64,000 nucleotides of DNA, taken from Geosiphon pyriformis uo1 (lineage: Eukaryota; Fungi; Glomeromycota). Every line of letters starts with the position of its first letter. The stretch's first letter is position 1. Shown here piece by piece: positions 2,189 to 64,000 of this stretch. A program made the translations under genes and the position numbers. The notes under the pieces are model-generated. The model saw nothing but the letters and a program-made list of their open reading frames with translations. It was not told where the DNA came from and searched no databases. Location of the stretch: positions 3,422 to 67,421 of the forward strand of contig JAAOMT010000233.1 of the NCBI GenBank assembly GCA_016748015.1, written 5' to 3'.

Positions 2189-3556
2189 ATGGATCCCAGA
2201 AACTACAGCAATCTTAAAAATTATTTGGAGACTCTTACCATGCCAGAAAACTGGTTTCCAAGTGAAAAACACCACTTACAACACCAATCAAAACAATATT
2301 TCATACACCAGAACAAAATTTATTATAAAAATCACAGAAAACCAAACCAGCCACTCAGATTAATACAAGAGAATGAAAAAGAAACAATTTTATACAACAT
2401 GCACACAGATCCGTCTTCAGCATACTTGGGAAAAAAGAGAACAATTCAAAGAACCCTTGAACATTATTTTTGGCCTCACATGTAAAAAGACATTTGACAA
2501 TATATAGAATCTTGTGATAATTGCCAAAGAAGAGGAGGAACTCGCTCCACAGAACCTTTAAATCCAATCAAAGTTGGACAACTGTTTGACAGAGTTGGAA
2601 TTGATTTAGTCAGACCATTACCTATCACAACCCAAGGAAATCATTATATTGCAGTTGCAGTAGATTATCTTACCAAATGGCCTGAAGCTAAAGCCATCCA
2701 AAGAACAGATGCAAAATCAGTAGCAAAATTTATCTATGAAGACATTATCTGTAGACATGAATGTCCGATTGAACTCTTATCTGATCAAGGAACACATTTT
2801 GTGAACAACTTGATACAAGAAATTTGTGAACGGTTTAATGTCAAAAGACCTCTATCATTACCTTATCACCTTCAAACAAATGGACTTGTAGAACATTTCA
2901 ACAGAACATTGTGTGAATCTTTAGCCAAAGTCTCAACAGACTTTGAACAGGAATGGGATATCTTTATTCCATCAGTGTTACTAGCATACAGAACACTAAA
3001 ACAAAATACTATGAAACACACACCATTTGATCTTACCTATGGAAGGACAGCAACATTACCAATTAATTTCACAGTGGAAACATACCCAGTGCAACCAATC
3101 AATGAAGAAAACTTTCAAGAGACACTCCAAAGAAGAGCCTACACTCTTTTTAGTACACTGAAAGAAAAAAGAAGAATAGCAGCAGCTCATATTGAACATT
3201 CCCAAGCTCAACAAAAAGAAAGACATGACAACAAATTACCATCTATTACCAACGAATTTAAAGTTAGAAATAAAGTTTTTTTACACAGAACTAAGGCTGA
3301 AAAACAATAGAGTGGGAAATTTGAAAACAAATGAGATGGACCATTTTATATTCACGAAATCCTAGGCAATGGATCATATAAGTTAAGACTTGATGACAAA
3401 ATATTAGCAAAAGTTGCACATGGAGACAGACTGAAACACTATCATTCCAGAAACAATCCTGAACCATTAATTCCACAAATTGGTACACATTCCCCTTTAA
3501 TTAATCCTGAAGATATTCCCCGAAATTTAGAACCAATAATTATAATAGAACAATAA
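2189..3556 (+). pseudogene. Integrase of Gypsy-1 (zinc finger, DDE core, GPF/Y; no chromodomain)
   Basis: YFWP...CDNCQ, GIDLV, LSDQGTHF, TNGLVEHFNRTL, GPFYIHEILGNGSYKL; stop at 3554-3556. Confidence 0.92.
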
Positions 3557-3588: not shown

Positions 3589-3849
3589 NNNNNNNNNNNN
3601 NNNNNNNNNNNNNNNNNNNNNNNNNNNNNNNNNNNNNNNNNNNNNNNNNNNNNNNNNNNNNNNNNNNNNNNNNNNNNNNNNNNNNNNNNNNNNNNNNNNN
3701 NNNNNNNNNNNNNNNNNNNNNNNNNNNNNNNNNNNNNNNNNNNNNNNNNNNNNNNNNNNNNNNNNNNNNNNNNNNNNNNNNNNNNNNNNNNNNNNNNNNN
3801 NNNNNNNNNNNNNNNNNNNNNNNNNNNNNNNNNNNNNNNNNNNNNNNNN
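3589..3849. other. Assembly gap (N run)
   Basis: 261 N characters. Confidence 0.99.
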
Positions 3850-4387
3850 ATTTACAGAACTATCACCCCTATAGAAGAGAAACAAGAAGTCACTCTGAGA
3901 ATAGATTACCAAGACTTTTGAAGCAGGCACTAGAAGAAAATCTGCTAATTGCCCCTATTGACATTCCACCAAATGCTACAATGCAACAAAAACTACTACT
4001 ACTTCTTAATAAACAGAACAATGAATACACCCCTATCTATAGATACTTTCAAATTGGAAAAACACTTTATGAACGAAAACTGGAACTTGAAACAACAAAT
4101 CTCACTCTTGAAGTTATACAAAAACAAATCTACAATGAATTCAAAACAGCAGCTGGACCAACAAACACTTGCTACAAACTTAGAGCAGCTTTTAGACTCT
4201 ATGATTTGTTTAATACTTGTGAAAATGTTCTACAAAATCCAATACTGCAATCAATGAAAGTCTAATACATTGGCAAACTCACAGAACTGAAATTTCAACA
4301 ATTTTCAGACCAGATTACTTCAATCATTTTAGATTACTATCTCAATATTACAGATAGTGCTTGGACTTTGACAGAGCTCAGTCTTAA
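3850..4387 (+). pseudogene. ORF3 of Gypsy-1, unknown conserved accessory protein (N-terminus lost in gap)
   Basis: YRYFQIGKTL...AFRLYDLF...IGKLT..KF...LDFDRAQS*, homologous to ORF3 of Gypsy-2 and Gypsy-3. Confidence 0.75.
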
Positions 4388-4398
4388 GAAGAAGATTA
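4385..4398 (+). promoter_or_regulatory. Polypurine tract of Gypsy-1
   Basis: taagaagaagatta immediately before the LTR. Confidence 0.7.
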
Positions 4399-5415
4399 TA
4401 TTACCAGCAGAATTTTAGCTATTAATTAGCATGAAATTACTCTTATAATTCCTATAATTAATTAGTATATTAATATCATTTCAAATTATCATTTATTATT
4501 TAATCAATTATCACATATCACGATTCAATTAAAATAATCTAATTAGTATAACAGAAAGTAAGATGATCAAATTACACAATACCCTGAACTTTGTAACATT
4601 CAAAAATTCGCCGAAATTTACAGAAATTCGCCGAAATTTATAAGAAATTCGCCAAAATTTACAGAAATTCGCCGAAATTATGAATAGTTCACCCAAATTA
4701 ATCAATAGTTCAGCAAAATAACTTGTAGTTCATCAAAATGTATCTTTAGTTTGCCGGAATTTGGGCAAAGAGAAAAAGTGCAAGTTTATAAACTAGTACT
4801 ACAACAAGTTGTATAAAAGAAGAGCTTTTCTCTTCTGAAAAATGTATCTTACTTTAGATTTATCTCTTAAAGACTGTTCTTATACACAGAAAAAGAAATA
4901 AAATATCAAATAATTTGAAAAACCAAATTCTTTAATTATTGTACTTGGAAAAACCCCCAAAAACCCAACTAACATTTCGAAATTGATTAGCTACCAATTT
5001 CAGTAAACTGTTAGTGACTCCAGGCCTGGATGGAAAACGTTTCTCTTGACAGAATTCTATTTTTTTTACATTTTTTTTATTTTTTTCTTTTCTCTTCTTT
5101 TTATAATCATTAAGGTAGTCTACAGACAAGATTTCTGTAGAAGAGTTGACTTTCACAGCAAAGTAACTATACATTTTAGTGAGCTTCCAGACGAGCAATT
5201 CCTGGGAAAGAGTTGACGTTTACTACAACGTAACTACATAAAGTAACTGGCAAGGAATTGGCCATTCCACTTATAAGCCCAGCAGTTCAAATTATAGAAG
5301 ATAATTTGAAGATAAATTCAGTTATTGGAGGTTCAACTACTTCCTAAAAACGTGAATTCACAGCAAATCAACATTACCAACATTTAAGAAAAAAGACCAA
5401 AAACCTCCGGTAACA
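4399..5415 (+). repeat. 3' LTR of Gypsy-1 (~1017 bp)
   Basis: T(A)TTACCAG...CCGGTAACA termini; reverse-complement homologue at 25373-26358; TATA (gtataaaag) near 4811. Confidence 0.92.
4601..4680 (+). repeat. U3 tandem repeat, about 4 x 20-21 bp (GAAATTCGCCGAAATTTACA)
   Basis: Direct reading; more degenerate units continue to ~4760. Confidence 0.85.
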
Positions 5416-10780: not shown

Positions 10781-10873
10781 ATATTAGTTGTAATTTTTTA
10801 TTAAAATAAATCTGTAGTATTGCTTTAATTAACTTAAGTGGCTGGTTACATATAAAAAGTACATGATTTATGT

Positions 10874-11728: not shown

Positions 11729-12456
11729 ATGTTTAGTTTAGATTACTTAATTACATGTATTATGCTATTAAATATAATAATAATAAAATAAGTTTTTTGA
11801 TATTAAAAGTAGTTTTAAAAAACTTAAATTGTTTTTAAGTAATTTTATTTTTAATAGTTATAATTCAAATAGTTTTATTAATAAATTAGATAAATTGAAT
11901 TTATTTTTGATTTATTTTTGATTTAATTTAATTTAGTTTAGTTTTAACTGACTTGAATAATTAGTTATATATATAAAATATATAAACTGTAATTATTTTA
12001 AAAATTTTGTATTTTATGTTATATTTAATAATTAAATTATATTTTATTATAAAAAAAACATAAAAAAACAAATATTTAAATTTAAACCTAAAACATATAA
12101 CATAATTTTTAAAAATACCAAATATATATATTAATAATAATTATCAAATTTTTAATCTTAATAAATAACAAATTATTAATTTTAATTAATTTGTTTTTTT
12201 TTGTATTTTGCTTTTAATTTGATATTTAATAAATAATTTTTTTTTGTATTAAATAATTATACTTTAACAAAATTTAATTAGTAATTTTAAAGTTATTAAA
12301 AACTTATTAAACTAGTTTTTAAATACAAATTTTTAATATTTATACAAATAAATTATTATTTTTTATAATATATAAAACTTAAAATATCAACAATAAATTA
12401 ATTACAATATTAATAAATAATTTTTATTAATTTTAATACTTATACAATAATTTATG

Positions 12457-17345: not shown

Positions 17346-19070
17346 CATTAAACACCATTAATTTTAATTCCTTTATGTTTTATAATACTTTATTTAAATA
17401 TACAAAAATATTTAATTTTATTATATTAAATATATAATAAATTAAAATAAAACAAACTATACAGTTTTTTTAACTACAATAAAATTTTATATATATATAA
17501 ACTTTATAATATAAAAATATAAATTAATTATAATTTTATTAATAAAATTAAAACTAAAATAAAAGTTTAAAATAATATTCTATATAATATTACTTATAAA
17601 ATAATTTAAAAAAATAAATAATAATTAAATATAGTATAAATTAGCCAATAATAAAACAAAAAATTATTAAACTATATAATATTAAAAATTTCAAAAATTT
17701 TATTAATAATTAAAAAAAAGTAAAAATTTTGTATAAAGATATATATATATAATAATAATATTAAAAACAAAAAAAACAAATAAATTTAGTTTAATTTTAC
17801 TAAATAATTTTAACTCTTAGAAATTTAATATTTAGAACAAACTTTTTTTAATAAAATTATTAATTCAATTATTTATTATTAAACTTTTATAAATTTATTT
17901 ATTTTAAATTAATATTATTTATATTATATTACTAATAATAAAACAATAGTTTTTGATAATAATTATTAATAGAATATTGATTTTTATTTTATATTTTTTT
18001 GGTTGTGTTTAATTATTATTAATTAATTAAAAAAATTGCTAAAATTATAATATTAAAAATTGTTTAATAAAAAAACAAAAAATAGCATAGAAAAAATAAT
18101 CAAAAAACTTAAATTGCTTATTAAAAAAATAATAAACATTAAAATAAACCAGTTATTATGCCAAAAAATTAAAAATTATTTATTATTTATTATACAAAAA
18201 ATTTAATTTATTAAAACTTTCAAATTATTAATATTATTATAATACCAAAAAAACTTCTTTTTCTCTTTCATCTCAATTTTCAAAAAAAAGTTTTTGTTTT
18301 CTTGTTATTTATTTTATTATTTCTCAAATATTAAATCCTTTTGTTATTGAATTAGCTACCACTATGAATGGTTCTGATGTTAGAAAAAAGTCAGCCAGAG
18401 TTGCAACTTCAGGTTCTGTTAATAAAAGCTTGTCTTAAAAGCAAAAGTTGTTCCTTGGTACTGTAGTTAATTTTTTAATCAACTTTTTAGTTTATAATAT
18501 AGATAATAAAAATAAAATTTTTCTTTCTCTCCTTTCTCTCTACTTACTTATATCTTTAAACAAGAAGTGAATTAATCCAAAAATAGTTAAAACTCAAGTA
18601 AAAGTAGCTGTTAAAAAATTGTTTGCTTTGAATATTAATCTCTTTACAGTGAAAAACAAATTGGTAACAGCAAAAACTCAGTTTATTAGGAAAAATTTTT
18701 TATTAATCAATGGTTTTGAAAAGACTACTGATCTCTCAAAATTTGAAAAGATCATCAAATTTATATTTACATTTGAGAAAAACATAAAGAAGACCATATT
18801 ATTAATTAAGAAAAAAGAAATTAAAATAAACAGTAATCTCAAAAGACAAGAAATGAGATCAAATTAAACTGTAATAATTAAGAAAATTTTTATAAACATA
18901 TCAAAAAAAATAATTATTACTATAGTTGCTAAATATGATTAGATTGTATTAATCAAATTACAACTTATTAGACTGTGGCAGAAAACTATGATGAAGTTTG
19001 CCAAATTAAGTTAAATAGATTAGTTAGTAATAAAGTAGTTATTTCTAATTAGAAAAAATTCAGTATGCAT

Positions 19071-20003
19071 TGTTACAGGTGATTTTTTGGGGTGTTGAGT
19101 GAATAACAAATCTGTAACTTGGTGCGCAAAGCAATTGGTGATGATGATAATCTGAAGGTATTTTATCTGAAAGTTTTCCAATCAAGTTCTTTGTATAATG
19201 GACAGAGATTCAATAGTAACAGTTTATTAGTAGTTTCCTGAAACCGTAGTTTTGTTGATTGCTTGCTCAGCTTGATGGTTAATGATTCTCTTGGTATGAT
19301 ATCCTTCATAAGTGTATATTAGTGTTGTTTTCTGACGTCAGTTTCTCCATAAGTCCTCTAAAAGTAAGTATTGTTTAAGCAAGTTTATTCTTTTATAAGT
19401 TCTCTAAGAGTAAGTATTATTTAAGTAAGTTTTATTCCTCCATAAGTCCTCCAAGAGTAAGTTCTTTAATCAAGTTAGTAGACAACAAAGAAATAAAAAA
19501 AAGATAAAGAGAAAATAAGAAATAGCCAAGATGGTTTGCAAGTTAGTATCCCATTAATAGCCATGATCAAGAGCTATTGTTTCAGTATAGTTAAGTATTA
19601 GTTACTATCAACATGAAATGTTGATAGTGAAAAATAGATTTGAGATAGTGAATAATTATTTATTTAAGAATTGTGGTAACTAAGCTAAGGATTCTTGGTG
19701 TCGATTCTGTTTTTTCTGCTTCTAATGCTACTACTATATATACATATTTGAGATTTCTCAATTTTTCAATTCCTTGCAACAGAAATCCTGGAATTCCTGG
19801 AATCCTGTGATTCCTGATAAGAAGAATTCTGAAATTCTGGAATTCTGGAATCCTGCGATTCCTCACTGGAGAATCCTGAAATTCCTAGAATCTTGCAATT
19901 CTTTTGAGAGGAATCCTGGAATTTCACATTTACTATGTCTACTTCTGATTGGCTAATCTTTACTTGCTAATAATAATATACTTCCTTTAATCTATGAGTA
20001 ACA
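19071..20003 (-). repeat. 3' LTR of Gypsy-2 (933 bp)
   Basis: Direct repeat of 29446-30283; U3 GGAATTCC-like repeats 19780-19925; TATA near 19735-19747. Confidence 0.95.
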
Positions 20004-20019
20004 TTATTCTCTTCTTTTA
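20004..20019 (-). promoter_or_regulatory. Polypurine tract of Gypsy-2
   Basis: minus strand TAAAAGAAGAGAATAA abutting the LTR. Confidence 0.85.
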
Positions 20020-20676
20020 ATATTGAGCTCTATCGAAATCTAACTCTTTTAATTCTCCCTCTTGAATTATTTTTTGAACTTCTTTTTTGAGTATTACTTG
20101 TGTTATTTGAGTTTGTAGTTCTTCAAATTGGGTGTTGGTTATTTTCCCTAATTGATTACTTGTAACTGTATCTATTGCTGTGTTGAGTAAGATTTCTGGT
20201 TGGTCTTGAAATCTCATATATAGCCAGTAAATGGCTCAAGCTTGTGTGATTAGATTGTTCTTTCCCACAAATTGTTCCAGTTGTCTCAGTATTGTTGTGT
20301 CAAATAATTATTTTGTTTTGTCAGTGTACAAATTCTGGATATTTACATGTTGTTCCAAGTGAAAATGACAATAGTTTTTCGGAAATTGTTGCATCTACCA
20401 AGTCCAAGTTTCTTTGGTAAGTTCTTGGTGTAATCTAACTATTTGTTCTTCTTTCATGGCCAATTTTACTTTGGTCATAATCTTGTCAACAATATTTTTG
20501 AGTTTTCTCTGTATTTTGTGTTGTGGTATCCTTGCAGTACTTTTGTATCAAATGGTTTGTTAATTAATTGTAATTTCCATCTCCTGGTGTTGGATTAATT
20601 GAAAGATTTGTTGTGCTAATGAATGGATGTTGTCGGTAATTTCTATTTTTCTGCGTTTTTCCGTCATGTTGACCAT
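20017..20676 (-). pseudogene. ORF3 of Gypsy-2 (unknown accessory protein, ~220 aa)
   Basis: ATG 4 nt after the integrase stop; ITDNIHSLAQQI...EITIN...NYCHFHLEQHVNIQNLY...LGKITNTQFEELQTQI...LDFDRAQY*; contains stops and a frameshift. Confidence 0.78.
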
Positions 20677-20680
20677 GCTT

Positions 20681-22083
20681 TTATATATTTTTTCTGTCAA
20701 TTAATTGGATGTTTTGTTATCAATGATAATGATTGGTTTCAGATCTCATAGAATCTCATCTGGTTGGACTAGTATTCTCTGTACTCCTAGTTGTGGAATA
20801 TTACTAATAGATAATGATACTATATGGTGGTATGGTTTCAGTCAATTTCTATGTGTTGCTTTGGTCAAGATTTTGTTATTTAATCTTAATTTGTAAGCTC
20901 TATTTCCTAGAATTTTTTCTATGTAAAATGGTCCATCCCATTTGGGGTCGAATTTTCCACTCCATTGTTTTTCTACTTTGATACAATGTAGTAGTACTTT
21001 GTCTCCAATCTTGAATTCAACTGGTTTATCTGATAGTTAGTTATCATGTCTTTTTTTTTGTTTCTCTTGTGACTTTTGTATGTTATCAGCTGCTCTTCTT
21101 TGTTTATTTTCTAATGTTTCTATTAAGCCATATGTTCTTCTCAACAATGTGTTTTTGAAATTCTCTTCTGTTATTGGTATGGTTGAGTATGTGCTGACTT
21201 CTATTTCCACTGGTAGTGTTGCTGTTCTACCATATATTAATTTAAATGGTATTGCTTGTGTAGTATCTTGTTTCATTGTCTGATAAGCAAATAGTACTGA
21301 TGGTATTAATAAATCTCAATTGTTCTGGTTTTTTTGGCTGAGCTTAGCTATTGCTTTACACAATGTTCTGTTGAATCTTTCGACTAATCTGTTGGTTTGT
21401 GGATGATATAGTAATGATAATGGTCTCTTAATTCCGAATCTTTGGCTCAATTCTGTTAATGTTCTGTTCACAAAATGAGTTCTTTGGTCTGATAATAATT
21501 TTTTTGGACATCCATGTCGACAAATCAAATCCTGATGAATGAATTCGGCAACAGATTTTGCATCCGCTTTTTGAATTGCTTTCATCTCTGGCCATTTAGT
21601 GAGATAGTCTATGGCTACTGCTATGTATCTGTTTCCTCTGCTGGTGATTGTTAATGGTCTGACTAAATCAATTCTAATACAGTCAAATGGTTGTCTCACT
21701 TTGATTGATCTTAATGGTTCACTGGGTCTTGTTTCTCCTCTTTGTTAACAAACATCACAATTTTGAACATATTGGATGATGTCTGAATACATTGATGGCC
21801 AATAGTATTTTTTTCTGGTTCTTTCCATGGTTGCTTCTTTGTAAAAATGTCCTGCTGTTGGATTTGAGTGCATGTTAAATAATATTGTCTCTTTTTCTGG
21901 CTCTGTAATTACTTTGGTTGGTTGATCTAGATCTCTTCTATTTTTTCGATAAAGTATATTTTGGTAAGTGATAAAATATTTTGATTGTTGTTTAATACTC
22001 TTTTGTTCCATTTGAGATAAATTCTCCTTGAACTGTTGAGTGTTTATATAATGTTGTAGTTGTTAATATTTTTGTATGTTCAT
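20681..22083 (-). pseudogene. Integrase of Gypsy-2
   Basis: HSNPTAGH...YYWP...CDVC; IDLVRPL; LSDQRTHF; PQTNRLVERFNRTL; WDGPFY. Confidence 0.92.
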
Positions 22084-22146
22084 CTTTTGTTATATTTTTC
22101 ATTAGTATTGTTCTGGTTTTGTTATATTTTTGGGTTTGAGATGTTC

Positions 22147-23575
22147 TTAAATTTGTTTTATTCGCGACAAACTGTTGGCATTTCCGTTGTCTTTTCCTTT
22201 TTTATAGTGTATAATATAAGTATATCATGAGAGTGCCATTTTCCATCTGAATTGGTGGCTGTTTCCAAATTCTTGTTTCTGAAGTGACATTAATCCTTTG
22301 TGATCTGTGTACACATCAAACTTCTGGCTCAAATATTTGCTCCATTTCATGACTGCCTAGTAAATTGCCAAGTGTTCCAGTTCTGGTGTTCTATAGTTTT
22401 TTTTGGCTGGAGTTAACCCTTGGCTTGCATAAGCCACTAGATGTTCTCTTCCATCTGGTCCTTTCTGCAATAGTACTGCTCCCAATGCTTGGCCTGATGC
22501 ATCAGTGGTAATAATGAATGGTTTGTTGTGATTTGAATAGATCAGTACTAGAGCTTGAATGAGTTTTCTTTTCAGAATATCAAAAGCTTCTTGTTGATTT
22601 TCTGTCTATTCATATTTTGTATTCTTGGTTTGCAGATTATTGAGTAGTTGAGCTATCTTTGAAAAGTTCTTTATAAAGCATCAATAATAGCTTGCAAATC
22701 CCAAGAATAATTTTAATTCAGTTATATTGGTTGGTACTAGAAAGTTTTTTACTATCTCTATTTTCTCTGGATTTGTTTTGATGCCATCTTTGCTGACTAT
22801 GTGTCTCAAGAATTTTAGTTTTGTCTTGCTAAAGAAGCACTTTGTTGCATTTAACTTTAGTTCTGCTCTTTTTAGTCTTTTGAACACTTATTGAAGATGA
22901 TAAAGATGATCATCAAATGTTTTTGAGAATACATTGGTGTTGTCCAAGTATACAACTACTGATTTCCACAATAAGCCAGTATAAACAATTTCTATTAGCT
23001 GTTGGAAAGTGGCTGAGGCATTGGTTAAGCTGAAAAGCATCACTTCAAATTTGAAATTCTCTTCTCTAGTGATGAACACCATCTTCTCTTTGTTGGGCTG
23101 AATTCATGGCTACTTGCCAGTAATTACTGTTCAAGTTTAATGTTGAGAACTTTTTGTTTCCACTGAAAGTGTCAAATAATTCTTATATTCTTGGGGTTGG
23201 ATAGCTGTCTCCATGAGTTACACCATTGAGTTTCCTGTAGTCCACACAAAATTGGATTTTTCCATTCTTCTTTCAGACAAGTACCACTGGTGATGACCAT
23301 GGACTCATTAATGATTGAATTAGTTTGTTGTTAAGCATTCGGTTTATCTCTTGACGAATGATCTCATGGCTAGCTGGTGGTACTCTGTATGCTTGCTGTT
23401 TGATTGGCATTGCATCTCTAGTCTTGATCTGATGCTGGATAATATCAGTTCGGCCAAACTCGTTTTCACTGACAAAGATGTCATTGAAATTGTTGAGCAA
23501 CATCTTGAGCTGCATACATTGGAGTGGATCTAAGTTTCCTATGTTCATTTGTTTTAATTGCTTTGGTTGGAGCAA
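22147..23575 (-). pseudogene. RT + RNase H of Gypsy-2
   Basis: SPWSSPVVLV, FCVDYRKLN, TNASATFQ, YLDN, TDASG, ELEHLA; ends NSLSRIKQI* at 22147-22149. Confidence 0.93.
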
Positions 23576-23984
23576 ATAACAATTACTTCATCCATATATT
23601 GTTTGTGATGTGATATCAACATATTTACAAAGCTGTAAAAAGTCCAGAATAGTGCTTGGTGGTTGATCTTCTATTTTAGTGTTTAAGTATCCAATGGTGG
23701 TTCTGGCTGGTATTACTATGACATTTTTTGTGTTGTTGTAGATGGGAATTTTGATGTGGCTGTAATCTTTGGCTAGTATATAGAGATTAATGAGTCCAAT
23801 CTCTCCTAATTTACAAAAGATTGGTTCTGCTTCAAAAATCTGATTCTGTTCTTTTACTTCCCACTTTATTTTTACCATGTACTGGCCATATGGTGGAATA
23901 GAAATTGCTTGACCCATTGAGATAATTTCTCCTTGGTCAACAATTTTTTCTTCTGCCATATTGACTGGTACATCTATTTTATCT

Positions 23985-24350
23985 GTTGATCCAAATTCCT
24001 GTATTCCTCTTGCTGTTATCCCTAATTCCTCCCTATTTTCTACTGATATTAACTAAGCTATTTTCACCAGAGGCAGGAATATTGCCTATGCTATCTTTTC
24101 ATTTGGCTCTATAATATAAGTCTTTTCAAAGTCATTTTGTAGCATAACAATAATATTTCCTACATATTCTGTGTCAATTATTCCTCCTCTTATATTAATT
24201 CTTTTTTTCACTAAACTACTCCTAAATGCTAGTTAAATCATTGTTGTTGCTGAAATTTTCAGTGCTACTTTCAGATCTATGCAGGTGTGCAAATATGGTT
24301 CCAATTTTATAACATCTTTTCCAGGATATCTCAGATCAAACCCAGCATCA
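23985..24350 (-). pseudogene. dUTPase domain of Gypsy-2, between protease and RT
   Basis: DAGFDLRY (I), RSSL (II), GGIIDTEYVGNI (III), IA*AIF (IV), RGIQEFGST (V). Confidence 0.92.
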
Positions 24351-24599
24351 GGATCATGTGCACATTCTGGCATAATATCTTTATTATTGTCACTATACCA
24401 TTTCAACTCTTGTTCTTTGGAAAAGTCTGGCAGTGCAATGTATTGTTCATATTTTGGGTCAGAGTTTGAATCTGAATTGGAATTATCATTATTTTTATCG
24501 CCAATTTGAACGGAGCTAGAACTGGTGTTTTCATTATTGTCATTGTTGAAGTTTGAATTGGGATTTAACAGTGATTCCAATTCAGATGCACAGTTGCTG

Positions 24600-25372
24600 A
24601 TTGGTTCCTCTTCTTCTAAGATCATGTAGATCATGCGTGGTAGTGGATTGTAGATGAGGTCACACTCATCACAATACTGAAAGTCACATGGAATCAAGCA
24701 ATAGTCACATAATTGGATGTTGATTTCTTCTAACCATTGCTTTTGCTCTTCTCTGGTGGGTGCTAGATTCTGATAATGTTCGTGAAACTCTTCTGGGCTG
24801 TTTTCCAAGTCTAAAAAGGCATCTGGGTTGAGAACCAAAATGATGTTTGTTGGTTCTGAAGAGTTGTTCTTGATCTCTAAAATTTCACTGGATAAAGTGC
24901 CTTCCACTTTGGCATTGGCCATTCGCCAGATCTCGTCTTTGTCATGTGGGTATCCTTCTAAGTGAGAGATTGCTTGGTGCCAGGCTGCTGTTATGGACAT
25001 GCTACAATTTATCCAGTTACTGATGAGAATCGTGTACTGACACAAAGCATTACACGTTCCTCCTTGACCAGGAATGTTATTCCACATTTCTTCATCGAGT
25101 AGTTGCTCACCGCAAGCAAGACATGATTCATTGTCTTACTTGTCTTGTCATTTTGGGTAGCCATAGCGTTTTCTATGGCAAGATTTACAATAATAGTGGG
25201 TTTGCGTCTAGTGGTCCTTGTCTGGTACAATCTAGGCTCCCATGGAAGAAAGTTTTTTCCCACAGTCTTTGCACTTGAATGGTATGTATGGCAGTTGTGG
25301 CAGTGGCTCATAAATGGAGTATAAACAAGTCCAGCCACTAGTGGTGTCTTTTGTTGATTCGGTTTTCTCCAG
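24600..25372 (-). pseudogene. Cys-rich insert in Gypsy-2 polyprotein (putative Zn-binding modules)
   Basis: CKDC...CKSC, CLAC...CNALC, CDYCLIPCDFQYCDEC read in the pol frame. Confidence 0.7.
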
Positions 25373-26358
25373 TGTTACTGGAGGTTTTTGGTCTCTTTTC
25401 TTAAATGTTGTCGATACTTGTTTGCTGTAAATTCACATTTTCTGGATGTGGTTGAACCTCCAATAACTGAATTTATTTTCAAATTATCTTCTATAATTTG
25501 AACTGCTGGGCTTATAAGTAGAATGGCCAATTCTGTGCCAGTTACTTTATGTAGTTATGTTGTAGTAAATGTCAATTTTTTCCCAGGAATTGCTTGTCTG
25601 GAAGCTCATTAAAATATATAGTTACTTTGCTGTGAAAGTCAACTTTTTTACAGAAATCTTGTCTGTAGGCTACCTTAATGATTATAAAAAGAAGAGAAAA
25701 GAAAAAAATAAAAGAAATGTAAAAGAAATAGAATTCTGTCAAGGGAAACATTTTCCATCCAGACCTGGAGTCACTAACAGTTTACTGAAATTGGTAGCTA
25801 ATCAATTTCAAAATGTTAGTTGGTTTTTTTTTGAGGATTTTCCAAGTGCAATAATTTAAAAAGTTTTGGTTTTTTGAATTATTTGATATTTATTTCTTTT
25901 TGTGTGTATAAGAATGGTTCTAAGTGATAAATCTAAAGTAAGATACATTTTTTCGAAGAGAAAAGCTCTTTTTTTATACAACTTGTCGTAACACTATTCT
26001 ATGAACTTGAACTTTGTTATTTTCTACAATTTCGCTGAACCAAAGATACATTTCGGTGAACTACAAATTATTTCTGTGAACTATTAGATATTTTGGTGAA
26101 TTATCAATTATTTCAGTGAATTTCTATAAATTTTAGTGAACTTTTGAATGTTACATAGTTTGGGGTATTACATGATTGATCATTGCAATTAGGTTACATT
26201 TGTGTTGTGTACAATTTGGGTTATTAATTAAATGATAATTTTGGACATTTTTGCTAATATAATAAGTGATAATTTGAAACGATAATATATGCTAATTAAT
26301 AATAGGAATTATAAAATAATTTTATGCTAAATAATATCTCTAATTTTGTCTGATAACA
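25373..26358 (-). mobile_element. Solo LTR of the Gypsy-1 family nested in Gypsy-2 pol, TSD CCAG
   Basis: Reverse complement of 4399-5415; CCAG at 25369-25372 and 26359-26362. Confidence 0.95.
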
Positions 26359-26619
26359 CCAGTATGTTGTTTTCTTTTTCTTTTTCTTTCCCTTTTTTTT
26401 TCCAACTTAGTGTAAGTGGCAACTCATTTTGGTTGTCGTCAATCCAAATGCCAATGGTGGTTTCCCAGGTATGTTCTTCTTTCTGCTTTCCTTTTTCATG
26501 GTTGTCTTTGTTCCAGGTGAGTATGGGTGGCAGTTCATTGTGGTCGATGTTGGCCCACAAAACCTGATATGCTTCTCATGTTGGTTTCTTTGCTTCTTCC
26601 TTAAATTCAATCAGTGGCT

Positions 26620-27030
26620 GTGAGTTGGTTGGTTTAAAGTGGCCACATACTGCTGGTGCCCGAGTATGTTGACTGTTTTGGCTCAGTTGGAGCTCTTGTA
26701 TCATCCAATTAAGTATGGTATTTGTTTTAGATAGCCAATTATTTCCAACAAGAGCTTGGTACTGAGTGGCTTCCATCACAAGGACTTTGATGGGTACCAT
26801 AATGCCGTTAATTTCGATAAGTAGGTTGTCTATTTTGCCTATTGGAGTTTTGGTTACTCTATTAGCTGTAATGATTCTTGCACTGGCAGCTCAGTCAACT
26901 TGGTGACCTAATTGATCCATAAGTTGCTTTGTTATGATACTGCCAGCTAATCCACTATCTAAGATTAGTTTGATGGCATGACCATTGATTTTGGCATCCG
27001 TATACATAATGGTAATTGGCTTCTCTTCAA
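26620..27030 (-). pseudogene. Aspartic protease of Gypsy-2
   Basis: LILDSGLAGSII catalytic motif and C-terminal ALVGNNWL. Confidence 0.88.
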
Positions 27031-27619
27031 GAGCTGCTCTACTGAACAACAGGATTTTGATTGTTTTTTCCAAGTTGAAGAGAAAGATGGCCGCAAGTGA
27101 TTTGTCATTGGTGACAGTTGCTGGTGGAATGTTGTTGGTAAGTGCTTGTTGTTGGTTGGATCCCAAATTGTTGGTGGTGGTGTCTTCTGGGGTAACCAGG
27201 AGACTTAAATAGTTCTGGAAATTCAGGTTTTGAGTGACACCAGTACCCAAATTCCAAGAATGCAATCCTAATGGTGCATTGAAAGAACTGGGAATCAGTT
27301 AATGGACAACTATTGCCGATCTCCAGTTTTGTTGTGTTATTCTCAGTCTTTGGGTTCTGTGTTAAGGTAAATTTTGGGGTGGTGTTTAAATGGTTTGAGA
27401 TTGATAGATTACTTGTGGCTGTGGTTGATATATTATGGATGGCTGCAGTTGATATATTGCTGGTGGCTACAGTTAATAAACTGGGGTCTAATATATTGGT
27501 GCTTGATAAATTGGCTGCTGCGTCATTGGTAGGTAAGTGTTTTGGTATTGATCTTGATTTTGATATTGATTCTGGGTTTGGAATCGGGAATCAGGATTTT
27601 GATATTGATTTCCTGATTG

Positions 27620-29384
27620 TCAGTTATAAGCATTGCAGTTGGCTCTTATGTGACCTTGTTTACCACAGTTGTGGCAGACACATGTTTTCTGCTGCCACAG
27701 TTGATTAATTGACAATGATAAATGTGTTTGATTTTGGAAATGATTGGCATTTCCCTGATTACTGTGTTTTTGGGGAGATTGATAAATGAACTGATGGTTG
27801 TTAGCTAAGTATTCCTCAATTTTCTGATTGATGGTATTATAGATTTGCTTCAATTTGAAATCCAAATCAGATGATCTATTTATTACTAAATTTACCACTT
27901 GAGCATAATTGGCTTTTAGCTCAGCTGATTTGAAATTTCTGGCATGTGTGACTGCAGCTTGAAGATTGGCTGGATGTAATGGGCATATGTGTTGCAAAAT
28001 GCTACTGCGCAGGCCACGAATAAACTGGTTAAAGATCTGGGGTTCTGTGAAATACACAGCATCGATGGCTTGAATTTGGCATAGAATTCTATAAAAGCGT
28101 CCTAGGTATGTTGTGACTGTTTCAGTATTATTCTGTTTGATTGTGGTGAAAGTATTGGCTAGACAATTAATACTGTTATTATTGCTAAAATATCTCAAAA
28201 AGACAGTTTTGAATTGTTGGAATGTTTGTGGTCTGGTGGCTAAACTCTAGTACCAAAAATTGGCAGTTTCTTTGAGAAAGTATGGTATCATCTGTAAGGC
28301 TCTGGTGTCATCCCAATTGTTTGCTATGATGGCCTTGAAGACATCATTGATCCATGCTTGAGTGTCATCTTCTTTGCTGGTAAAGTTTTCTAATTTTGTG
28401 ATGGGTGCATAGGCCATTTGGTTTACATTTAGTTGTTGTGGTGGCTGTTGAAGTGGTTGTTGTTGCATGGGTTGTTGGAGTGATAGTTGAAGTGACTGCT
28501 GTATGAGTTCAGCTATTGGATTAATCGGTGGTTAATTGATGACAATTACTGGAGATAAGTTTTGTTGATTTATTAAATCAGGGTTTTGATTATCCTGATT
28601 TGGTGGGGTTTGAATATTCGGAGTGTCGTTTTCCTGATTGTCCAAATTTGGCTGGGTTTGAAAGTTCAGAGTTTCAATTTCCGGGTTTTCTAGAATTGGG
28701 TTTTGGTAAGTAAATTTTTGATCTTCACTTCCTTCCTCTTTTTCCTCTGATAATTTCTATGGAGTAGCAGCTCCGAAATCTGATTGAGGTAGTGGTGATT
28801 GAATTCCTGATGACATTGGGGATTGTGATTTAAATTTTTCCATATGGTTCTAGTAAGTTTTTTTTCTGTTGTTTGCTTTGGAACTGAAATCTTCCAAATG
28901 TTAATGTCATGTTTGATGTGGATGCATCTGCTAATAAAATGTTGATGGTGCTTCCAGGTATGTAGTGATATGATAAAGTGGTTGGTGATTCTACTCTGTG
29001 TTTCTTCCAACTAGGTAACTGTATTCCTTTTGGTGTTGCTGCTGGTGTTTGTATTCTTCCTTTACTTTTGTCTGCATAGGTAATGGAAAATTGTTGTTGC
29101 ATGTATCTTTCAATGGTTTGATTGATTTTCCTGATAATTGGGGTGAAACTGTGATTTCTTGGTAAGCTGATGTGTTAAAATAATTCTGTATAGAAATTTT
29201 CTCTTGCTGACTCAATATTAATGGTTCCTCCTAAACAGTCTGTAATTTTATCATTGACATAATAATTGAAGGCTAATTCAGCTGGGTAGTAATTACTGTT
29301 TAATCTTAATTGTTGGCTGTATTGTTAAAACAAAGATTTTGCGAATCTTAAGTGGTTGGCTCCTATAATTTCTGATTCTGCCAT
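27620..29384 (-). pseudogene. Gag of Gypsy-2 (long N-terminal extension, capsid-like region, CCHC knuckle)
   Basis: ATG at 29384 (MAESEIIGANHL); ENFTSKEDD...W...FIRGL; CHNCGKQGHIRANC. Confidence 0.88.
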
Positions 29385-29426
29385 GTTTAGATGGTGTTGT
29401 TGGCACTGGTTCTCTGTAGGATTATA

Positions 29427-29443
29427 CCTTACAGGGAGCACCA
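29427..29443 (-). promoter_or_regulatory. Primer binding site of Gypsy-2 (TGGTGCTCCCTGTAAGG)
   Basis: Starts with TGG 2 nt inside the 5' LTR; complementary to a tRNA ending ...GGGAGCACCA (Ile-UAU or Thr-like, inferred). Confidence 0.8.
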
Positions 29444-29445
29444 AA

Positions 29446-30283
29446 TGTTACAGGTAATTCTTTGGGGTGTCAAGTAAATAACAAACCCTTAACTTGGTGT
29501 GCAAAGTGATTGGTGATGATGATAATCTAAAGGTATTTTATCTGAAGGTTTTCCAATCGAGTTCTTTATATAATAAACAGAAATTCAATGGTAACAGTTT
29601 ATTAGTAGTTTCTTGAAACTGTAGTTTTGTCGATTGCTTGTTCAGCTTGATGGTTGATAATTCTTCTGGTATGATATTCTTCATAAGTGTATATTAGTGC
29701 TGTTTCCTGATGTCAGTTCCTCCGTAAGTCCTCCAAGAGTAAGTATTGTTTAAGTAAGTTTTATTCCTTCATAAGTCCTTCAAGAGTAAGTCTTTTAATC
29801 AAGTTAGTAGACAACAAAAAAATAAAGAAAAGATAAAGAGAAAATAAAAAATAGCCAAGGTGGTTTGCAAGTTAGTATTCTGTCAATAGCCATGATCAAG
29901 AGCTATTGTTTCAATATGGTTAAGTATCAATTACTATCAACATGAAGTGTTGATAGTGAAGAATGGATTTAAGATAGTGAATAATTATTTATTTGAGAAT
30001 TGTGGTAACTAAGCTAAGGATTCTTGGTATTGATTCTGTCTTTTCTGCTTCTAATGCTACTGCTATATATACATATTTGAGATTCTTCAATTCTTCAATT
30101 CCTTGTGACAGAAATCCTGGAATTCTGGAATCTTGTGATTTCTTGCTGGAGAATCCTGAAATTTCTGAAATCCTGCAATTCTTCTGAGAAGAATCTTAGA
30201 ATTCCACATTTACTATGTCTACTTCTGATTGGCTAATTTCTACTTGCTAATAATAACATACTTCCTCTAATCTATAAGTAACA
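29446..30283 (-). repeat. 5' LTR of Gypsy-2 (838 bp)
   Basis: Direct repeat of 19071-20003 with fewer internal repeat units. Confidence 0.95.
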
Positions 30284-38187: not shown

Positions 38188-38199
38188 CAAGAGACACCA
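38188..38199 (-). promoter_or_regulatory. PBS of the mini LTR element (TGGTGTCTCTTG)
   Basis: TGG 2 nt from the LTR end CTGGTAACA; decayed second copy near 46444-46455. Confidence 0.75.
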
Positions 38200-51740: not shown

Positions 51741-54700
51741 ATTTTTAATAATATATGCTTTAATAATAAAAATTAAAAAATTTACTAATAAGAATAACAA
51801 TACTTAATTTTAGCTAAATAATATTAAAAAAACTATTATTATTAATAATTAAAATAATATTAAAGTATTTTGAATATTTTTATCAGAATTTACATTAAAT
51901 ACAAATTATTAATACAAATTATTTTATTACATTCTAAGTTTTAAACCAATTTATTTAAAAACTATGTAGTAATCTTTTATAAAAGTATATTTATTATATT
52001 TAACTAATTTTTAAGTAGCAGTTATATTAATAAAAATTTTTAAATTGGCTAAACTAAAAACCAATCATGTTTAAACAATAAATTTTATAATAAATAATTT
52101 ATTTGAATTAAATATTAAGTTAAAACAATTTAGTAAATTTATTAATTAGAAATTAAAAAAGTATTTAATTAATAATTAAACAATATATTAATCTTTATAA
52201 TAATTATTTAACTTTATATATATAAAAATTATTTAATATATTTTAAAAAAAAATGGTTTTTTATATTAAACTTAAACAATAATTATTAATAAGTAATTAT
52301 AAATCTAACTAATAAAAAAAAACAGTTATTATTATTAAAAAAAAGAATCTTAAATTTAATATCTTATTATTTGAATTAATTAATATATCTATTATATTTT
52401 AATAATTAATAAAAATTGTTTACTTTAAAATCTCGTAAAAATTAGTAATTGTTTATTTAAATAATACAGATATGTTTTTAAAAACATTTAATAAATATTT
52501 ATATTATTTACAACAAATATTAAAATAATTTTAATGTATTAAATTAAAACTTAATATTAATAAATGTTTTTTGAAAAAACAAAACACAAATTTTTAAGAT
52601 ATATTATTGAAAAAAATAGTATTAAAACAGATTTAAATAAAATTATTAAAGTTAAAAACTTTTTAATATTACAAAATTTAATTAAAAATTTATATAAAAT
52701 TTTATAATATAAATAAACTAAAATTTAACAAAAAACATTTGATAACTTAAAACATAAGCTAATTAAAGTTTTAATATTAATCTATTTAGATTATAATAAA
52801 TTATTTATTATTAAAATTATTGTATTAAAAATTGTATTATTATAATAAAAATTAAATTGTTAAAAATGTTTAATAATATATATTAACTAAATTTAATTCT
52901 AAAATATTTAATAATTTACTAGACTATTATAAAAAAAAAATTTTATCCAATTATTTAATATTTATATTAATCATAAAAACTTAATATTACTACAAAAAAA
53001 AAATTAATAAATAATAAACATGCTAAATAAAAAACAGTACTATTATAATTTAAATACAAAATATATTATAAAAAAAATACTAATAACTTATTACAAATAA
53101 TATAAGTATAAAAATATTAATTATGTTATTATAAAAGCTTTAAAATAAATAATCAAATTTATTATTTATTAGTATATTATTTTAATACTCAATAATTTAA
53201 AGAGAGATTATCTTAAAATAAACAAAATAAAATATATTATTAATCTAAATACTATTTTATTTACTAATATATACTATATTAAAAAAATAACAATTTATTA
53301 ACTATTTATTAAAAATAATAATAAAACAAAAAAAAGAGACAGTTTTATTTAATATATACTTAAATTCAATAACAAAATATTTTAATTATAAATTAACAAT
53401 TAAAAAACCAAAAATATAAATTATTAATCAATTATATATTTAAATATAATTTAATATATACAAGGTTATAATGTTTATCAAAAAAAATAAGACTAAGTAA
53501 ATTATTATAACCAATTATTATTTATAACATCTAAAAACAATAAATATATAATTATTATCATAAATTATCTTATCAAATAGCCAAATATTAAAACAATTCA
53601 AAGAATTAATATTAAATTTATAGCTAAATTTATTTATTAAAACTTAATATATTAACACAAATATTCAAAAAATTGCTATTTAATCAAAAAATTCTCTTTA
53701 TAAACAGAATATTAATTAAATTAAATCAAAAATTTAAAATAAAAAAATTATTATAATATTATCTATAAACAAATTATTTAATTGAAAAATTAAATAAAAT
53801 ATTATGCAAACACTAGTCAAAATTAGCCAAAAAAATCAAAAAAAAATAGAATTTGTTTATATTATTAATATTATTTGCTTATTAGATAATAAAACAAAAT
53901 ATAATTTAAATAATACTATTTGAATTAATATATAATAAAACAATAATATTAATAATTGAGATAAAAATAAAAATATACTTAACAAAATTAATAATTAAAA
54001 CCATATTTTAAAAAACACAATTAAGATAAACATATAATTTAATAAAATAACAATATTAAAGTTTTACAAAAAAAACAAAAAAATACATAATAATTAATTA
54101 TTATATTTTACTAAAATAAAAAAAACCAATAAATTAAAAAATTTAATCCAAAATAAAATAGTTTATTTTATATTAAAAAATACTTGAAAATAAAACATAT
54201 AAATTACAATTAAAACAAAGTTTTAACCAAAATAATACATAGTAATTAATTAAAATTATATTATATTAAATTACTATTATTACTTAGTATATTATAATTA
54301 AAAACACAAAAAATATTAGTTAAATCAAATAAAATTAAAACCAATTATTATTATTAAAACCATAAATTAAAAAATTAGAAAAAGTATATAAATATTATAA
54401 AAATTGCTAATAAAATAAAAATTATAAACAATATTTATTTAATTGCTTAATAATTGTTTTAAGTATTAAAATATAAGAAGTCAAATATAAAAATAATAAT
54501 TAACAGTTAGAAAATTCGCTATAAAAACATTTAAAAAAAAACTAAAGATAACTTTATATAATAAAACAAAAATACAGCCAAATAATTACATAAAAATTTT
54601 TTTTGAAAAAATAAAAAAACTTTCAAAAATTTATTAATAATAATTTAATCTAAAAATCTAATAAAAAATAATTGAAAAAATTGAAAAAAACAATTTCCAA

Positions 54701-55060
54701 TAATATATTATTATTATTATTTAAGACAACAATTAAATATTTAGATTTTGTATATTAATTAATTCAAAAAAGTATTTAAAAAAATAATAATATAATAAAT
54801 AAAAAAATTTATTAAAAAAAACAACTTAATAATCTACTTAAAAATTATATAATAATTATATTTAATGTTTTAAGATTATAATAAAATATTATTATATTTT
54901 GTTATAAAATTATTTATAATAAATTAACTTAAAAAAATAACTAATTTATAGTTTGAAAAACTAAAAATGAAAATTGTTAACACTATAATTAAAAAAAAAA
55001 CAAATTTATTAAAAATAAAAATCTAGTAAATTTTACAAAAGCTTAATATAAAAAAATATA
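51740..55060. other. Ultra-AT-rich desert (probable hypermutated retroelement)
   Basis: Very few G or C; A/C skew matches the adjacent minus-strand LINE L6. Confidence 0.5.
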
Positions 55061-62488: not shown

Positions 62489-63199
62489 TCAAGATTGAGT
62501 TCTGTTGAAATCGAAGTTAATTTCTTCATTAAATTCTAAGTTACTATAGTGGTTTAATACTGTATTATTAATTTGTTGTTGTAATTCTTGAAATTGCGAG
62601 TTGGTAAATTGTCCAATACTGTTGGTTGTTATTATGTTCATGGTTGGGTCCAACAATAGTTTGTGACAGTTTTCAAATGCTTTAAAAATTCTATAAACTG
62701 TTTTTGAATGGAATGTAGTGTTGGTTTTTTCAATGAAAGGTTTTAATAGTTGGATAGTTGTTTTGTCAAACACTTTAGTTGAGTCTTTTGAGTATAATGT
62801 TTGTATGTTCAAGTGCTTTCCTAGTTAGTAATAACAGTAGTTAATTGGAAATTTTGTTTTCAAGTTGCTAAATGTGTTTGATGTTAATTCACTTATTTCT
62901 ATTTCTTCTATTATTAATGTATTGCCCAATGCTATCTCTAATTTTTCAATAACTTTGCTGATAAATTTGTTGTTATGTTTGGTAATATTATATGGTTCAA
63001 AATTATGTTCTTTTCTTGTTTTTGAATTTTCTATTGTTCTTTTTATGTATGTTATTTTGGAGCTATTAACTGTGATTTCCAGATCGGATTTCAATTGTTA
63101 TAAGCTTTCAACTAATTGTTGAGTTATATTGTTGATGTTTTCTGGAATAAGTATCATTGTTTTAATTTTGACTACTATTTTGGAATCTTTTACATGCAT
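62489..63199 (-). pseudogene. ORF3 of Gypsy-3
   Basis: IPENINNITQQL...LEITVN...NYCYY*LGKHLNIQTLY...VYRIFKAF...IGQFTNSQFQEL...FDFNRTQS*. Confidence 0.8.
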
Positions 63200-63241: not shown

Positions 63242-64000
63242 TTATCTTTTTGAATAATGTTCAATTAAAACTATTGGTTCTAAATCTCATGGAATTTGTT
63301 CTGGTAGAATTAAAGGTAATTGTGTTCCAATTCTGGGTGTCTTTGTTGTTATTACTGGTTTACTATAATAGAATTTCAGCCGGTTATCATGTGCTGCTTT
63401 TCTTAATATTTTATCATCTAGTCTTAGTTTGTATGCTCCATTTCCAAGTATTTCGTGAATATAAAATGGTCCATTCCACTTGTGATCAAATTTTCCACTC
63501 CATTGTTTTTCCATTTTTGTATGATACAACAATACTTTATCTCCAATTTTGTAGCTAATTATATTATCTGGTAACTGGTTATCATGTCTCACTTTTTGTT
63601 GTTCTTGTGATTGTTTAATATTTTGTGCTGCTTTTCTTCTTTTGTTTTCTAAAGTTCCTATTAATTCGTATGTTTTTCTAAGTAGTGTTTCCTGGAATGT
63701 TGCTTTTATGATAGTGTCACTTGGATAAGTTGGGATAGTAAGTTCAATTGGTAATGTGGCTTTTCTTCCATAAACTAGTTCAAATGGTGTGAATTGTGTA
63801 GTATTTTGTTTTACTGTTTTATATGCTAGTAGTACTGCTGGTATAAACAAATCCCATTCTTTTTCATGTTCGTTACTAATTTTTGCCAGTGATTTGCATA
63901 ATGTGCAATTAAATTTTTCAACTAATCCATTTGTTTGAGGGTGGTATGATGATGACAGTGGTCACTTGATTCCAAATTTTTGACTAAGTTTTTTTAAGAT
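63242..64000 (-). pseudogene. Integrase C-terminal half of Gypsy-3
   Basis: PQTNGLVEKFN, TPFELVYGR, WNGPFYIHEILGNGAYKL. Confidence 0.92.

What the first reader, a model, noticed from the sequence alone, without database searches (positions are those of the whole stretch)
20017..20676. Conserved non-env ORF3 between integrase and PPT in three diverged Gypsy families
Seen: ORF3 lies at 3850-4387(+), 20017-20676(-) and 62489-63199(-), in families whose LTRs differ. The proteins share Y-(C/R)-(Y/H)-(F/Y)-x-(L/I)-G/E-x2-(L/V), (A/V/I)-(F/Y)-x-(L/I)-(Y/F)-x2-F and (I/L)G-x2-T-x3-F-x2-(L/F)-x2-QI. Gypsy-2 and -3 also share an N-terminal NI..L.QQ...EIT.N block. The sequence looks amphipathic-helical, with no obvious signal peptide or TM anchor, so it is not an errantivirus-type env. 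Inference: a ~220-aa accessory protein kept by selection, for example an anti-silencing factor, transactivator or targeting factor.
Basis: partly seen in the sequence, partly recalled or inferred. Interest (0 to 1): 0.8.

Follow-up and report, generated by a model that had tools for sequence, protein, structure and literature searches.

The report
Third gene of fungal Gypsy retrotransposons
Several families of jumping genes in this fungal genome, and intact relatives in metagenomes, carry the same extra gene of about 230 codons behind their integrase; it encodes a predicted soluble helical protein matching no described family in the searches run, and it likely helps the element express its unusually divided genes, which is untested.

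Summary
Confirmed, with corrections. A sense-strand ORF3 of about 220-240 codons lies between integrase and PPT in all 4 Gypsy copies of the window. All four copies are dead from C>T/G>A decay. Homologues fall into about six Geosiphon pyriformis subfamilies and three metagenome groups at roughly 21-45% identity (67% within family 1). One metagenome contig (L001) holds an open ORF3 in the same position. Frame-blind alignments and dN/dS of 0.37-0.56 show selection on the protein. It has no transmembrane segment, signal peptide or catalytic pattern, so it is not Env. The AlphaFold model (pLDDT 81) found no Pfam, PDB or viral fold match. The integrase is also a separate ORF (3 of 3 checkable), making the element tricistronic; the scan noted this split before on other pieces of this genome, and other ORF3s in other genomes, but returned no sequence look-alike of this one. 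Function is not shown. My best guess (0.35) is a trans-regulator of the element's own RNA expression. It is a new protein family within a known kind.

The parts
20017..20676 (-). ORF3 of element 2 (family F2), decayed, 5 internal stops; stop codon abuts the PPT
20004..20016 (-). Polypurine tract of element 2, preceded by a 12-nt motif (starting at 20030) also found before the PPT of elements 1 and 3 and of L001
19071..20003 (-). 3' LTR of element 2 (TG...CA); 90% identical to the 5' LTR, 83 of 84 differences are transitions
20701..22083 (-). Integrase of element 2 as a separate Met-initiated ORF (decayed); 24-nt spacer to the ORF3 ATG
22147..29445 (-). Internal region of element 2 with PBS-like site and gag-protease-dUTPase-RT-RNase H; gag and dUTPase/RT parts are in one frame across a nested LTR; ends at a TAA (22149-22147)
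25373..26358 (-). Nested solo LTR related to the element-1 LTR (81% identity), with a 4-bp target duplication
29446..30283 (-). 5' LTR of element 2; the 4-bp target duplication ATGC flanks the whole element
3852..4418 (+). ORF3 of element 1 (family F1a), corrected frame; 5' part in the N gap; reads through the PPT (4386-4398) into the 3' LTR
2189..3556 (+). Integrase of element 1 as a separate Met-initiated ORF behind the RNase H stop (TAA 2129-2131)
4399..5415 (+). 3' LTR of element 1
62489..63199 (-). ORF3 of element 3 (family F3), 2 internal stops; likely start 63157; PPT 62488-62476, LTR from 62475
63242..64000 (-). 3' part of the integrase (with SH3-like domain) of element 3, cut by the window end
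54388..55020 (+). Fourth ORF3, a heavily eroded fossil behind integrase remnants (53557-53936) in a 9.8%-GC island

Best explanation
This is a third, selection-maintained protein gene of a Ty3/Gypsy retrotransposon lineage, found in Geosiphon-type fungal DNA and in metagenome contigs, encoding a predicted soluble, likely non-enzymatic helical protein that likely acts in trans on the element's own RNA or DNA to allow expression of its three separate reading frames. Shown: the gene, its place between integrase and PPT, its co-inheritance with the integrase, protein-level selection, the lack of membrane segments, and the separate integrase ORF. Predicted: an N-terminal helix + beta-hairpin module, a basic flexible linker and a helical core. 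Inferred, untested: ORF3 is made from a subgenomic RNA or by reinitiation, binds element nucleic acid through the basic linker and conserved aromatic/Arg residues, and promotes output of full-length RNA or of the downstream integrase cistron, as CERV does for Cer1 RNA export or TAV does for caulimovirus reinitiation. The gene being real and functional in active ancestors is about 0.93 likely. This mechanism is about 0.35 likely.
For: Gene and selection: 4 of 4 Gypsy integrases in the window have ORF3 behind them. The best frame-blind DNA diagonals are in frame in 10 of 10 pairs; codon position 2 is the most conserved in 9 of 10, with p<0.05 in 7 of 10. dN/dS is 0.37-0.56 in the 4 of 6 unsaturated pairs, against 0.17-0.25 for integrase. 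L001 has an open 230-codon ORF3 between integrase and PPT/LTR. ORF3 and integrase distances both pair E1 with L001 and E2 with E3. Non-enzymatic and soluble: maximum 19-residue hydropathy is at most 1.29 in 13 of 13 proteins; the conserved columns are hydrophobic plus Tyr, Gly, Asn, Arg and Thr, with no invariant Cys, His or Asp. Residues 31-60 are net +4 to +7 in 8 of the 9 tested proteins that keep the family's N-terminus (P0250 is -1), and residues 41-52 are low-confidence in the model. Need for a regulator: RNase H ends in TAA, followed 24-63 nt later by an integrase ATG, in E1, E2 and L001. The L001 spacer before ORF3 (316 nt) has a TATA-like box. Precedents: CERV (PMC10309623, abstract) and TAV (PMC5734791, search listing).
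Against: No sequence or fold link to any nucleic-acid-binding family was found (see Tried and rejected), so the binding role rests on charge alone. Intact metagenome proteins are net neutral to acidic (P0171 pI 5.4, P0166 pI 5.9), and the P0250 group lacks the basic linker. The spacers before ORF3 differ widely (24 nt in E2, 42 or 84 nt in E3, 316 nt in L001), so no single expression route is evident. The co-occurrence of ORF3 with the split integrase rests on 3 elements only. ORF3 evolves two to three times faster than integrase, which fits host conflict as well.
Confidence: 0.35

Rival explanations
1. ORF3 is an anti-silencing factor that protects the element from host DNA methylation or small-RNA silencing.
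For: The window is strongly CpG-depleted (observed/expected 0.12) and the LTR differences are almost all transitions (83 of 84), so host silencing pressure is real. ORF3 evolves faster than integrase. LTR elements expanded to 41.2% of the G. pyriformis genome (PMC11952901, passage).
Against: All 4 copies here are decayed. There is no conserved catalytic or metal-binding pattern of a demethylase. No likeness to a described suppressor was found.
Confidence: 0.2
2. ORF3 is a partner of the free-standing integrase: it brings integrase into the particle or nucleus, or steers target choice, replacing the covalent link that Gag-Pol normally provides.
For: The integrase is a separate ORF in 3 of 3 checkable elements, so it needs some route into the particle (inference). 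ORF3 directly follows it in 5 of 5 elements with both genes and has a congruent quartet. The integrase C-terminus scored weakly for an SH3-like domain and not for a chromodomain in the piece scanned.
Against: No interaction was tested. Adjacency alone is weak evidence. The integrase could bind Gag or RNA by itself.
Confidence: 0.22
3. ORF3 is a structural or movement protein (a coat-like RNA wrap, or a protein for spread between nuclei of the coenocytic hypha), possibly captured from an RNA virus.
For: The Atlas listed a closterovirus coat cluster at 0.90 and 0.93 for two queries. The protein is the size of such coats and is helical.
Against: Both queries had recognition below the Atlas's own mark, and the shared-feature counts (135, 156) were under the ~170 typical of true family members. 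The top hit for P0171 was instead an unnamed Mucoromycota cluster (0.94, 176 features).
Confidence: 0.1
4. ORF3 is a passenger: a once-captured or by-chance open frame kept by cis-acting DNA constraints next to the PPT, with no role in transposition.
For: The last codons overlap a conserved 12-nt pre-PPT motif that different families read in different frames. All window copies are broken.
Against: Conservation spans about 200 codons, is frame-specific and is centred on codon position 2. It persists among families whose LTRs no longer align, and it yields a confident fold.
Confidence: 0.04
5. ORF3 is a reduced Env-like membrane protein.
For: It holds the env position and sense orientation. Small 210-230 aa env-like ORF3s exist in rotifer Vesta6c elements (PMC5408684, passages).
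Against: There is no transmembrane-strength segment in 13 of 13 proteins, no signal-type hydrophobic N-terminus, and no conserved cysteines.
Confidence: 0.02

Closest known systems
Additional ORFs ('add. ORF') of unknown function in fungal Gypsy elements, and dUTPase-bearing PosPlaTy3-5 (Novikova et al. 2010, PMC2864245; passages seen)
   Same: A fungal Gypsy element with an extra ORF of unknown function; dUTPase between protease and RT as in PosPlaTy3-5.
   Different: No sequence link was tested, because the family table is an old .doc supplement that I did not see. The passages describe one or two main ORFs with integrase inside Pol, whereas here the integrase is a separate ORF.
[quoted passage not shown]
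   Same: Same slot, conserved across copies, function unknown; a regulatory role like that of retroviral accessory proteins is proposed there.
   Different: The sense plant aORFs often have transmembrane segments and the non-env ones are antisense. This ORF3 is sense, soluble and fungal, and in some families overlaps the PPT and LTR.
Non-env ORF3s of bdelloid rotifer LTR elements (GDSL, DEDDy, coiled-coil, TM; PMC5408684; passages)
   Same: Non-env third ORFs in dUTPase-bearing Gypsy-type lineages.
   Different: Those are mostly recognisable enzymes or membrane proteins and are family-specific captures. This one has no Pfam match and is shared across about nine diverged groups.
CERV of C. elegans Cer1 (PMC10309623; abstract and outline) and CaMV TAV (PMC5734791; search listing)
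   Same: Functional analogues for the preferred mechanism: element-encoded regulators of genomic RNA export and of polycistronic reinitiation.
   Different: No homology was tested or suggested. The resemblance is to the role only, and the role here is inferred.

Membership tests
Ty3/Gypsy (Metaviridae) LTR retrotransposon (host element) | Two direct LTRs with TG...CA ends and a target-site duplication | tested here: met
   Element 2: LTRs 30283-29446 and 20003-19071, 90% identical, 4-bp duplication
Ty3/Gypsy (Metaviridae) LTR retrotransposon (host element) | Order gag, protease, RT, RNase H, integrase | tested here: met
   Pfam and tblastn hits in that order, with an added dUTPase
Ty3/Gypsy (Metaviridae) LTR retrotransposon (host element) | PPT before the 3' LTR and PBS after the 5' LTR | tested here: inconclusive
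   PPT seen in E1, E2, E3 and L001. A TGG-starting site follows the 5' LTR, but it was not matched to a tRNA.
Ty3/Gypsy (Metaviridae) LTR retrotransposon (host element) | Integrase as part of the Pol polyprotein (the usual layout, recalled) | tested here: not met
   TAA after RNase H and a new ATG in E1, E2 and L001; three more stops in the E2 spacer. This is a variant layout, not a different superfamily.
Env / env-like ORF3 of errantiviruses and plant elements | Signal peptide and C-terminal transmembrane anchor | tested here: not met
   Maximum 19-residue Kyte-Doolittle mean at most 1.29 in 13 of 13 proteins (hydropathy only, no dedicated predictor)
Env / env-like ORF3 of errantiviruses and plant elements | Conserved cysteines of a fusion ectodomain | tested here: not met
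   0-3 Cys per protein, none conserved across families
Env / env-like ORF3 of errantiviruses and plant elements | Fold similarity to viral fusion proteins | tested here: inconclusive
   No significant row in the fold searches; absence does not exclude it
DUF1016 N-terminal (YhcG) domain (motif likeness recalled) | Profile-profile similarity over the helical core | tested here: inconclusive
   hhalign probability 1.6% over 15 columns, against 0.4% and 0.2% for controls (70 of 80 fetched loci used, shallow profiles). No support.
Closterovirus coat protein (PF01785) | Sequence or fold match to the coat domain | tested here: inconclusive
   Atlas feature hits 0.90 and 0.93; no Pfam hit and no listed fold row
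Retroelement expression regulators (CERV, Rev, TAV) | Needed for genomic RNA export or downstream-ORF translation | not testable with these tools
   Needs a reporter or knockout experiment
Fungal 'add. ORF' families of Novikova et al. 2010 | Sequence homology to those ORFs | not tested
   Sequences are in supplements that were not seen

The most novel reading that the evidence does not exclude
This is a tricistronic LTR retrotransposon lineage (Gag-Pol without integrase, then integrase, then ORF3) in which ORF3, a protein of undescribed fold, is an element-encoded translational transactivator that lets ribosomes restart on the integrase cistron. That would be a caulimovirus-TAV-like solution evolved independently in a fungal retrotransposon.
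Probability: 0.1. Interest if true: 0.82.

Novelty: new variant of a known kind. Interest (0 to 1): 0.47.

Why it matters
Extra ORFs between pol and the 3' LTR are known, but their functions are mostly open (PMC7264820). This one is old, shared across about nine diverged groups, open in at least one near-intact element, and well modelled, so it can be tested directly. It belongs to the Gypsy type of element, and LTR elements cover 41.2% of the G. pyriformis genome (PMC11952901). It accompanies a free-standing integrase gene, which raises the question of how a eukaryotic retroelement expresses and packages three separate proteins. Practically, well over a hundred 'hypothetical protein' gene models of G. 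pyriformis (129 listed) are copies or chimeras of this transposon gene, not host genes.

Tried and rejected
No whole genome was held, so no genome-wide copy census or DNA-level dN/dS within families was possible. RNA: no RNA holder was listed for 19071-23000; this is not evidence either way, and no reads were laid. Homodimer prediction gave no verdict (score 0.01, mark 0.32; the alignment was not used). Family scans: no Pfam hit for the 3 window ORF3s or for P0017/P0060. Among 39 alignment members there were only scattered weak hits, none shared by more than 2. PHROGs best E was 0.0012, on an unnamed family for one of 9 proteins. PDB sequence search with the profile: 1 hit at E 0.33. Fold searches: Foldseek found 0 hits at E<=0.001 in PDB and BFVD. 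VIA-align over 48,161 chains gave best Z 4.6 for the whole model and 4.1 for the N-terminal 70 residues (pLDDT 66 model), none at Z>=5. These blanks do not prove a new fold. Weak rows to KorB and Spo0J DNA-binding domains (Z 3.4 and 3.6, rmsd 4.5-5.0) are within background. The DUF1016-N resemblance was not supported. The viral contig collection gave no relative of P0166, the L001 integrase or P0250. Phage records gave no match. The metagenome scan (56 of 64 parts) gave 1 locus from 597 candidates. Literature: no paper held 'Glomeromycotina + retrotransposon + ORF3'. The listings showed none describing this protein by title or abstract start. The G. pyriformis genome papers (recalled) were not read. 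Readthrough as the route to integrase is disfavoured by three more stops in the E2 spacer, although decay could have made them.

Full report
Setting. The window is fungal repeat DNA. All 9 homologues found for copy 3 (of 366 candidates) and all 120 listed of 148 for copy 1 are Geosiphon pyriformis gene models, the best at 93% identity, so the window is from that species or a close relative (inference). CpG observed/expected is 0.12. No whole genome was held. The window has four Gypsy elements and several LINE-like elements with RT and RNase H (the LINE label is my reading).

Observation. Copy 1 was given in the wrong frame. The correct frame is 3852-4418, with its start lost in an N gap at 3589-3849. 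Intact relatives (235-239 aa) read on through the PPT into the LTR, and P0017 aligns to the window over 188 residues at 86%. A fourth copy at 54388-55020 scores iE 3.6e-29 against a 39-sequence profile that holds no window sequence. All 4 Gypsy integrases found by tblastn have ORF3 behind them, and no other place in the six frames scored comparably.

Anatomy. Element 2 is complete: LTRs at 30283-29446 and 20003-19071, a 4-bp duplication, then gag, protease, dUTPase, RT, RNase H, integrase, ORF3 and PPT. A solo LTR is nested at 25373-26358, and the frames on either side agree. The two LTRs are 90% identical and 83 of 84 differences are transitions, so the copy is dead by C>T/G>A decay. RNase H ends in TAA, and an ATG opens the integrase 57, 63 and 24 nt later in E1, E2 and L001 (3 of 3 checkable; E3 is cut by the window and E4 is too eroded). 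I noted this before seeing that earlier notes of the scan report it on other pieces of this genome; the reinitiation reading comes from those unchecked notes. A 12-nt motif precedes the PPT in E1, E2, E3 and L001. E2/E3-type families stop right at it, while E1/L001/P0166-type families read through it in another frame, so the very end of ORF3 is constrained at DNA level.

Spread. A profile search of 1.84 billion representatives gave 105 proteins at E<=0.001. Of 10 looked up, 7 were G. pyriformis and 3 came only from metagenome sources. A further search gave 114 proteins, 6 of them from such sources. Sorting the 260 proteins held gave six Geosiphon-type groups (F1a 90, F1b 84, F2 53, F3 10, F4 10, F5 4) and three metagenome groups (2, 1, 5); 1 was my bacterial control. 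Between groups, identity is about 21-45% over the longer alignments (67% for F1a-F1b). 56 of the 260 are near-full-length family-1 models, though gene models can hide stops behind predicted introns. One metagenome locus, L001 (Ga0335071_10060920), shows RT-RNase H, stop, integrase (one premature stop), a 316-nt spacer with a TATA-like box, an open 230-codon ORF3, PPT and LTR start. Its host is unknown. The Atlas's first hit for this protein was an unnamed 98-member Mucoromycota cluster (0.94, with recognition below the mark), a lead only. The known range is therefore narrow: one named species plus metagenome contigs, with DNA context seen for one of them.

Selection. In-frame protein scores exceed all 500 shuffles in 6 of 6 pairs (z 9.4-40.5). 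dN/dS is 0.47, 0.52, 0.56 and 0.37 in four pairs, and synonymous sites are saturated in the other two. Integrase gives 0.17-0.25. These values are rough: dS is near saturation, the alignments are protein-guided and the tips are decayed. A frame-blind test avoids that bias. The best 240-nt ungapped diagonals are in frame in 10 of 10 pairs, with position 2 highest in 9 and p<0.05 in 7 (the pairs are not independent). Both genes pair E1 with L001 and E2 with E3, a single quartet consistent with vertical co-inheritance.

Protein. The AlphaFold model of P0171 on 39 sequences has mean pLDDT 81 and pTM 0.66: helix 7-21, beta-hairpin 25-38, low-confidence linker 41-52, then nine helices at 54-220. No transmembrane-strength segment was found in 13 of 13 proteins. 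Conserved columns are hydrophobic plus Y36, Y102, Y104, G108, N145, R155, Y157, F160, G181 and F188, without a catalytic or metal-binding set. Residues 31-60 are basic in 8 of the 9 tested proteins that keep the N-terminus, but whole-protein pI ranges from 5.4 to 9.7. No family or fold match was found, and two leads (DUF1016-N, closterovirus coat) were not supported.

How it likely works. A soluble, non-catalytic protein kept across families whose LTRs no longer align must do something for the element. The element's other oddity is that three ORFs lie in series on one RNA, while eukaryotic ribosomes normally translate only the first long ORF (established knowledge). I therefore commit to a trans-acting regulator of the element's own RNA output or translation (0.35). 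The analogues are CERV, needed for Cer1 genomic RNA export (PMC10309623, abstract), and TAV, which activates reinitiation on caulimovirus polycistronic RNA (PMC5734791, listing). An integrase partner (0.22) and an anti-silencing factor (0.2) are close rivals. Coat-like (0.1), passenger (0.04) and Env (0.02) are unlikely; the remainder is unassigned. No step of the mechanism is shown.

Comparison and novelty. Extra ORFs of unknown function are recorded for fungal Gypsy elements (PMC2864245, passages), plant elements (PMC7264820, parts 1-2 of 3) and rotifer elements (PMC5408684, passages). The kind is therefore known. I found no description of this protein family in the searches, which cover only the open library. 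Unseen supplements of PMC2864245 and the G. pyriformis genome papers could bear on that. Earlier scan notes describe third genes in Gypsy elements of other fungal genomes, but sequence look-ups returned no look-alike of this one. Verdict: a real, new accessory-protein family in a tricistronic Gypsy lineage; a new variant of a known kind; interest 0.47.

Noticed in passing
window 2129-2189 (+), 22149-22083 (-); L001 772-799: Pol is split: TAA after RNase H, then an in-frame ATG opening the integrase 24-63 nt later, in 3 of 3 checkable elements. Earlier scan notes report the same on other pieces of this genome.
   Followed up: partly
window 51800-55050: A whole Gypsy interior (gag, RT, integrase, ORF3 remnants) eroded to 9.8% GC while neighbouring elements keep about 32%. 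The TpG/CpA excess of CpG decay is absent, suggesting a second, context-free or RIP-like C>T process. Other low-GC stretches lie at 9001-12000 and 17001-19000.
   Followed up: partly
window 1-280 (+) and about 24000-24300 (-): dUTPase between protease and RT in elements 1 and 2 (Pfam E 1.6e-17 and 2.5e-11). In element 2 it is preceded by a long Cys-rich and acidic region of unknown family.
   Followed up: partly
window 4374-4385 (+), 20030-20019 (-), 62502-62491 (-); L001 3092-3103: A 12-nt motif directly before the PPT is conserved in four elements that read it in different frames; it is likely a cis element for plus-strand priming.
   Followed up: no
window 61865-61686 (-), 19331-19230 and 29706-29605 (-): Several G. 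pyriformis gene models splice ORF3 to a short coding exon inside the 3' LTR (P0002, P0003, P0005, P0130, P0162). This may be a gene-prediction artefact or a real spliced form.
   Followed up: no
window 19067-19070/30284-30287 and flanks of 25373-26358: The two 4-bp target duplications (ATGC, CTGG) both have a central TG, compatible with a decayed CG as an earlier scan note proposes; 2 cases only.
   Followed up: partly
window 36741-39292 and 46081-47777: A 1.46-kb unit present in tandem and again 8.3 kb away at about 90% identity, flanking a LINE-like element; possibly LTRs of another family.
   Followed up: no
window 5562-8800, 12592-17300, 30305-35726, 39433-45959, 48061-51735, 55225-61592: Several decayed LINE-like elements (RT, RNase H, endonuclease-like region by my reading) at about 65% DNA identity to each other, none with ORF3.
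   Followed up: no
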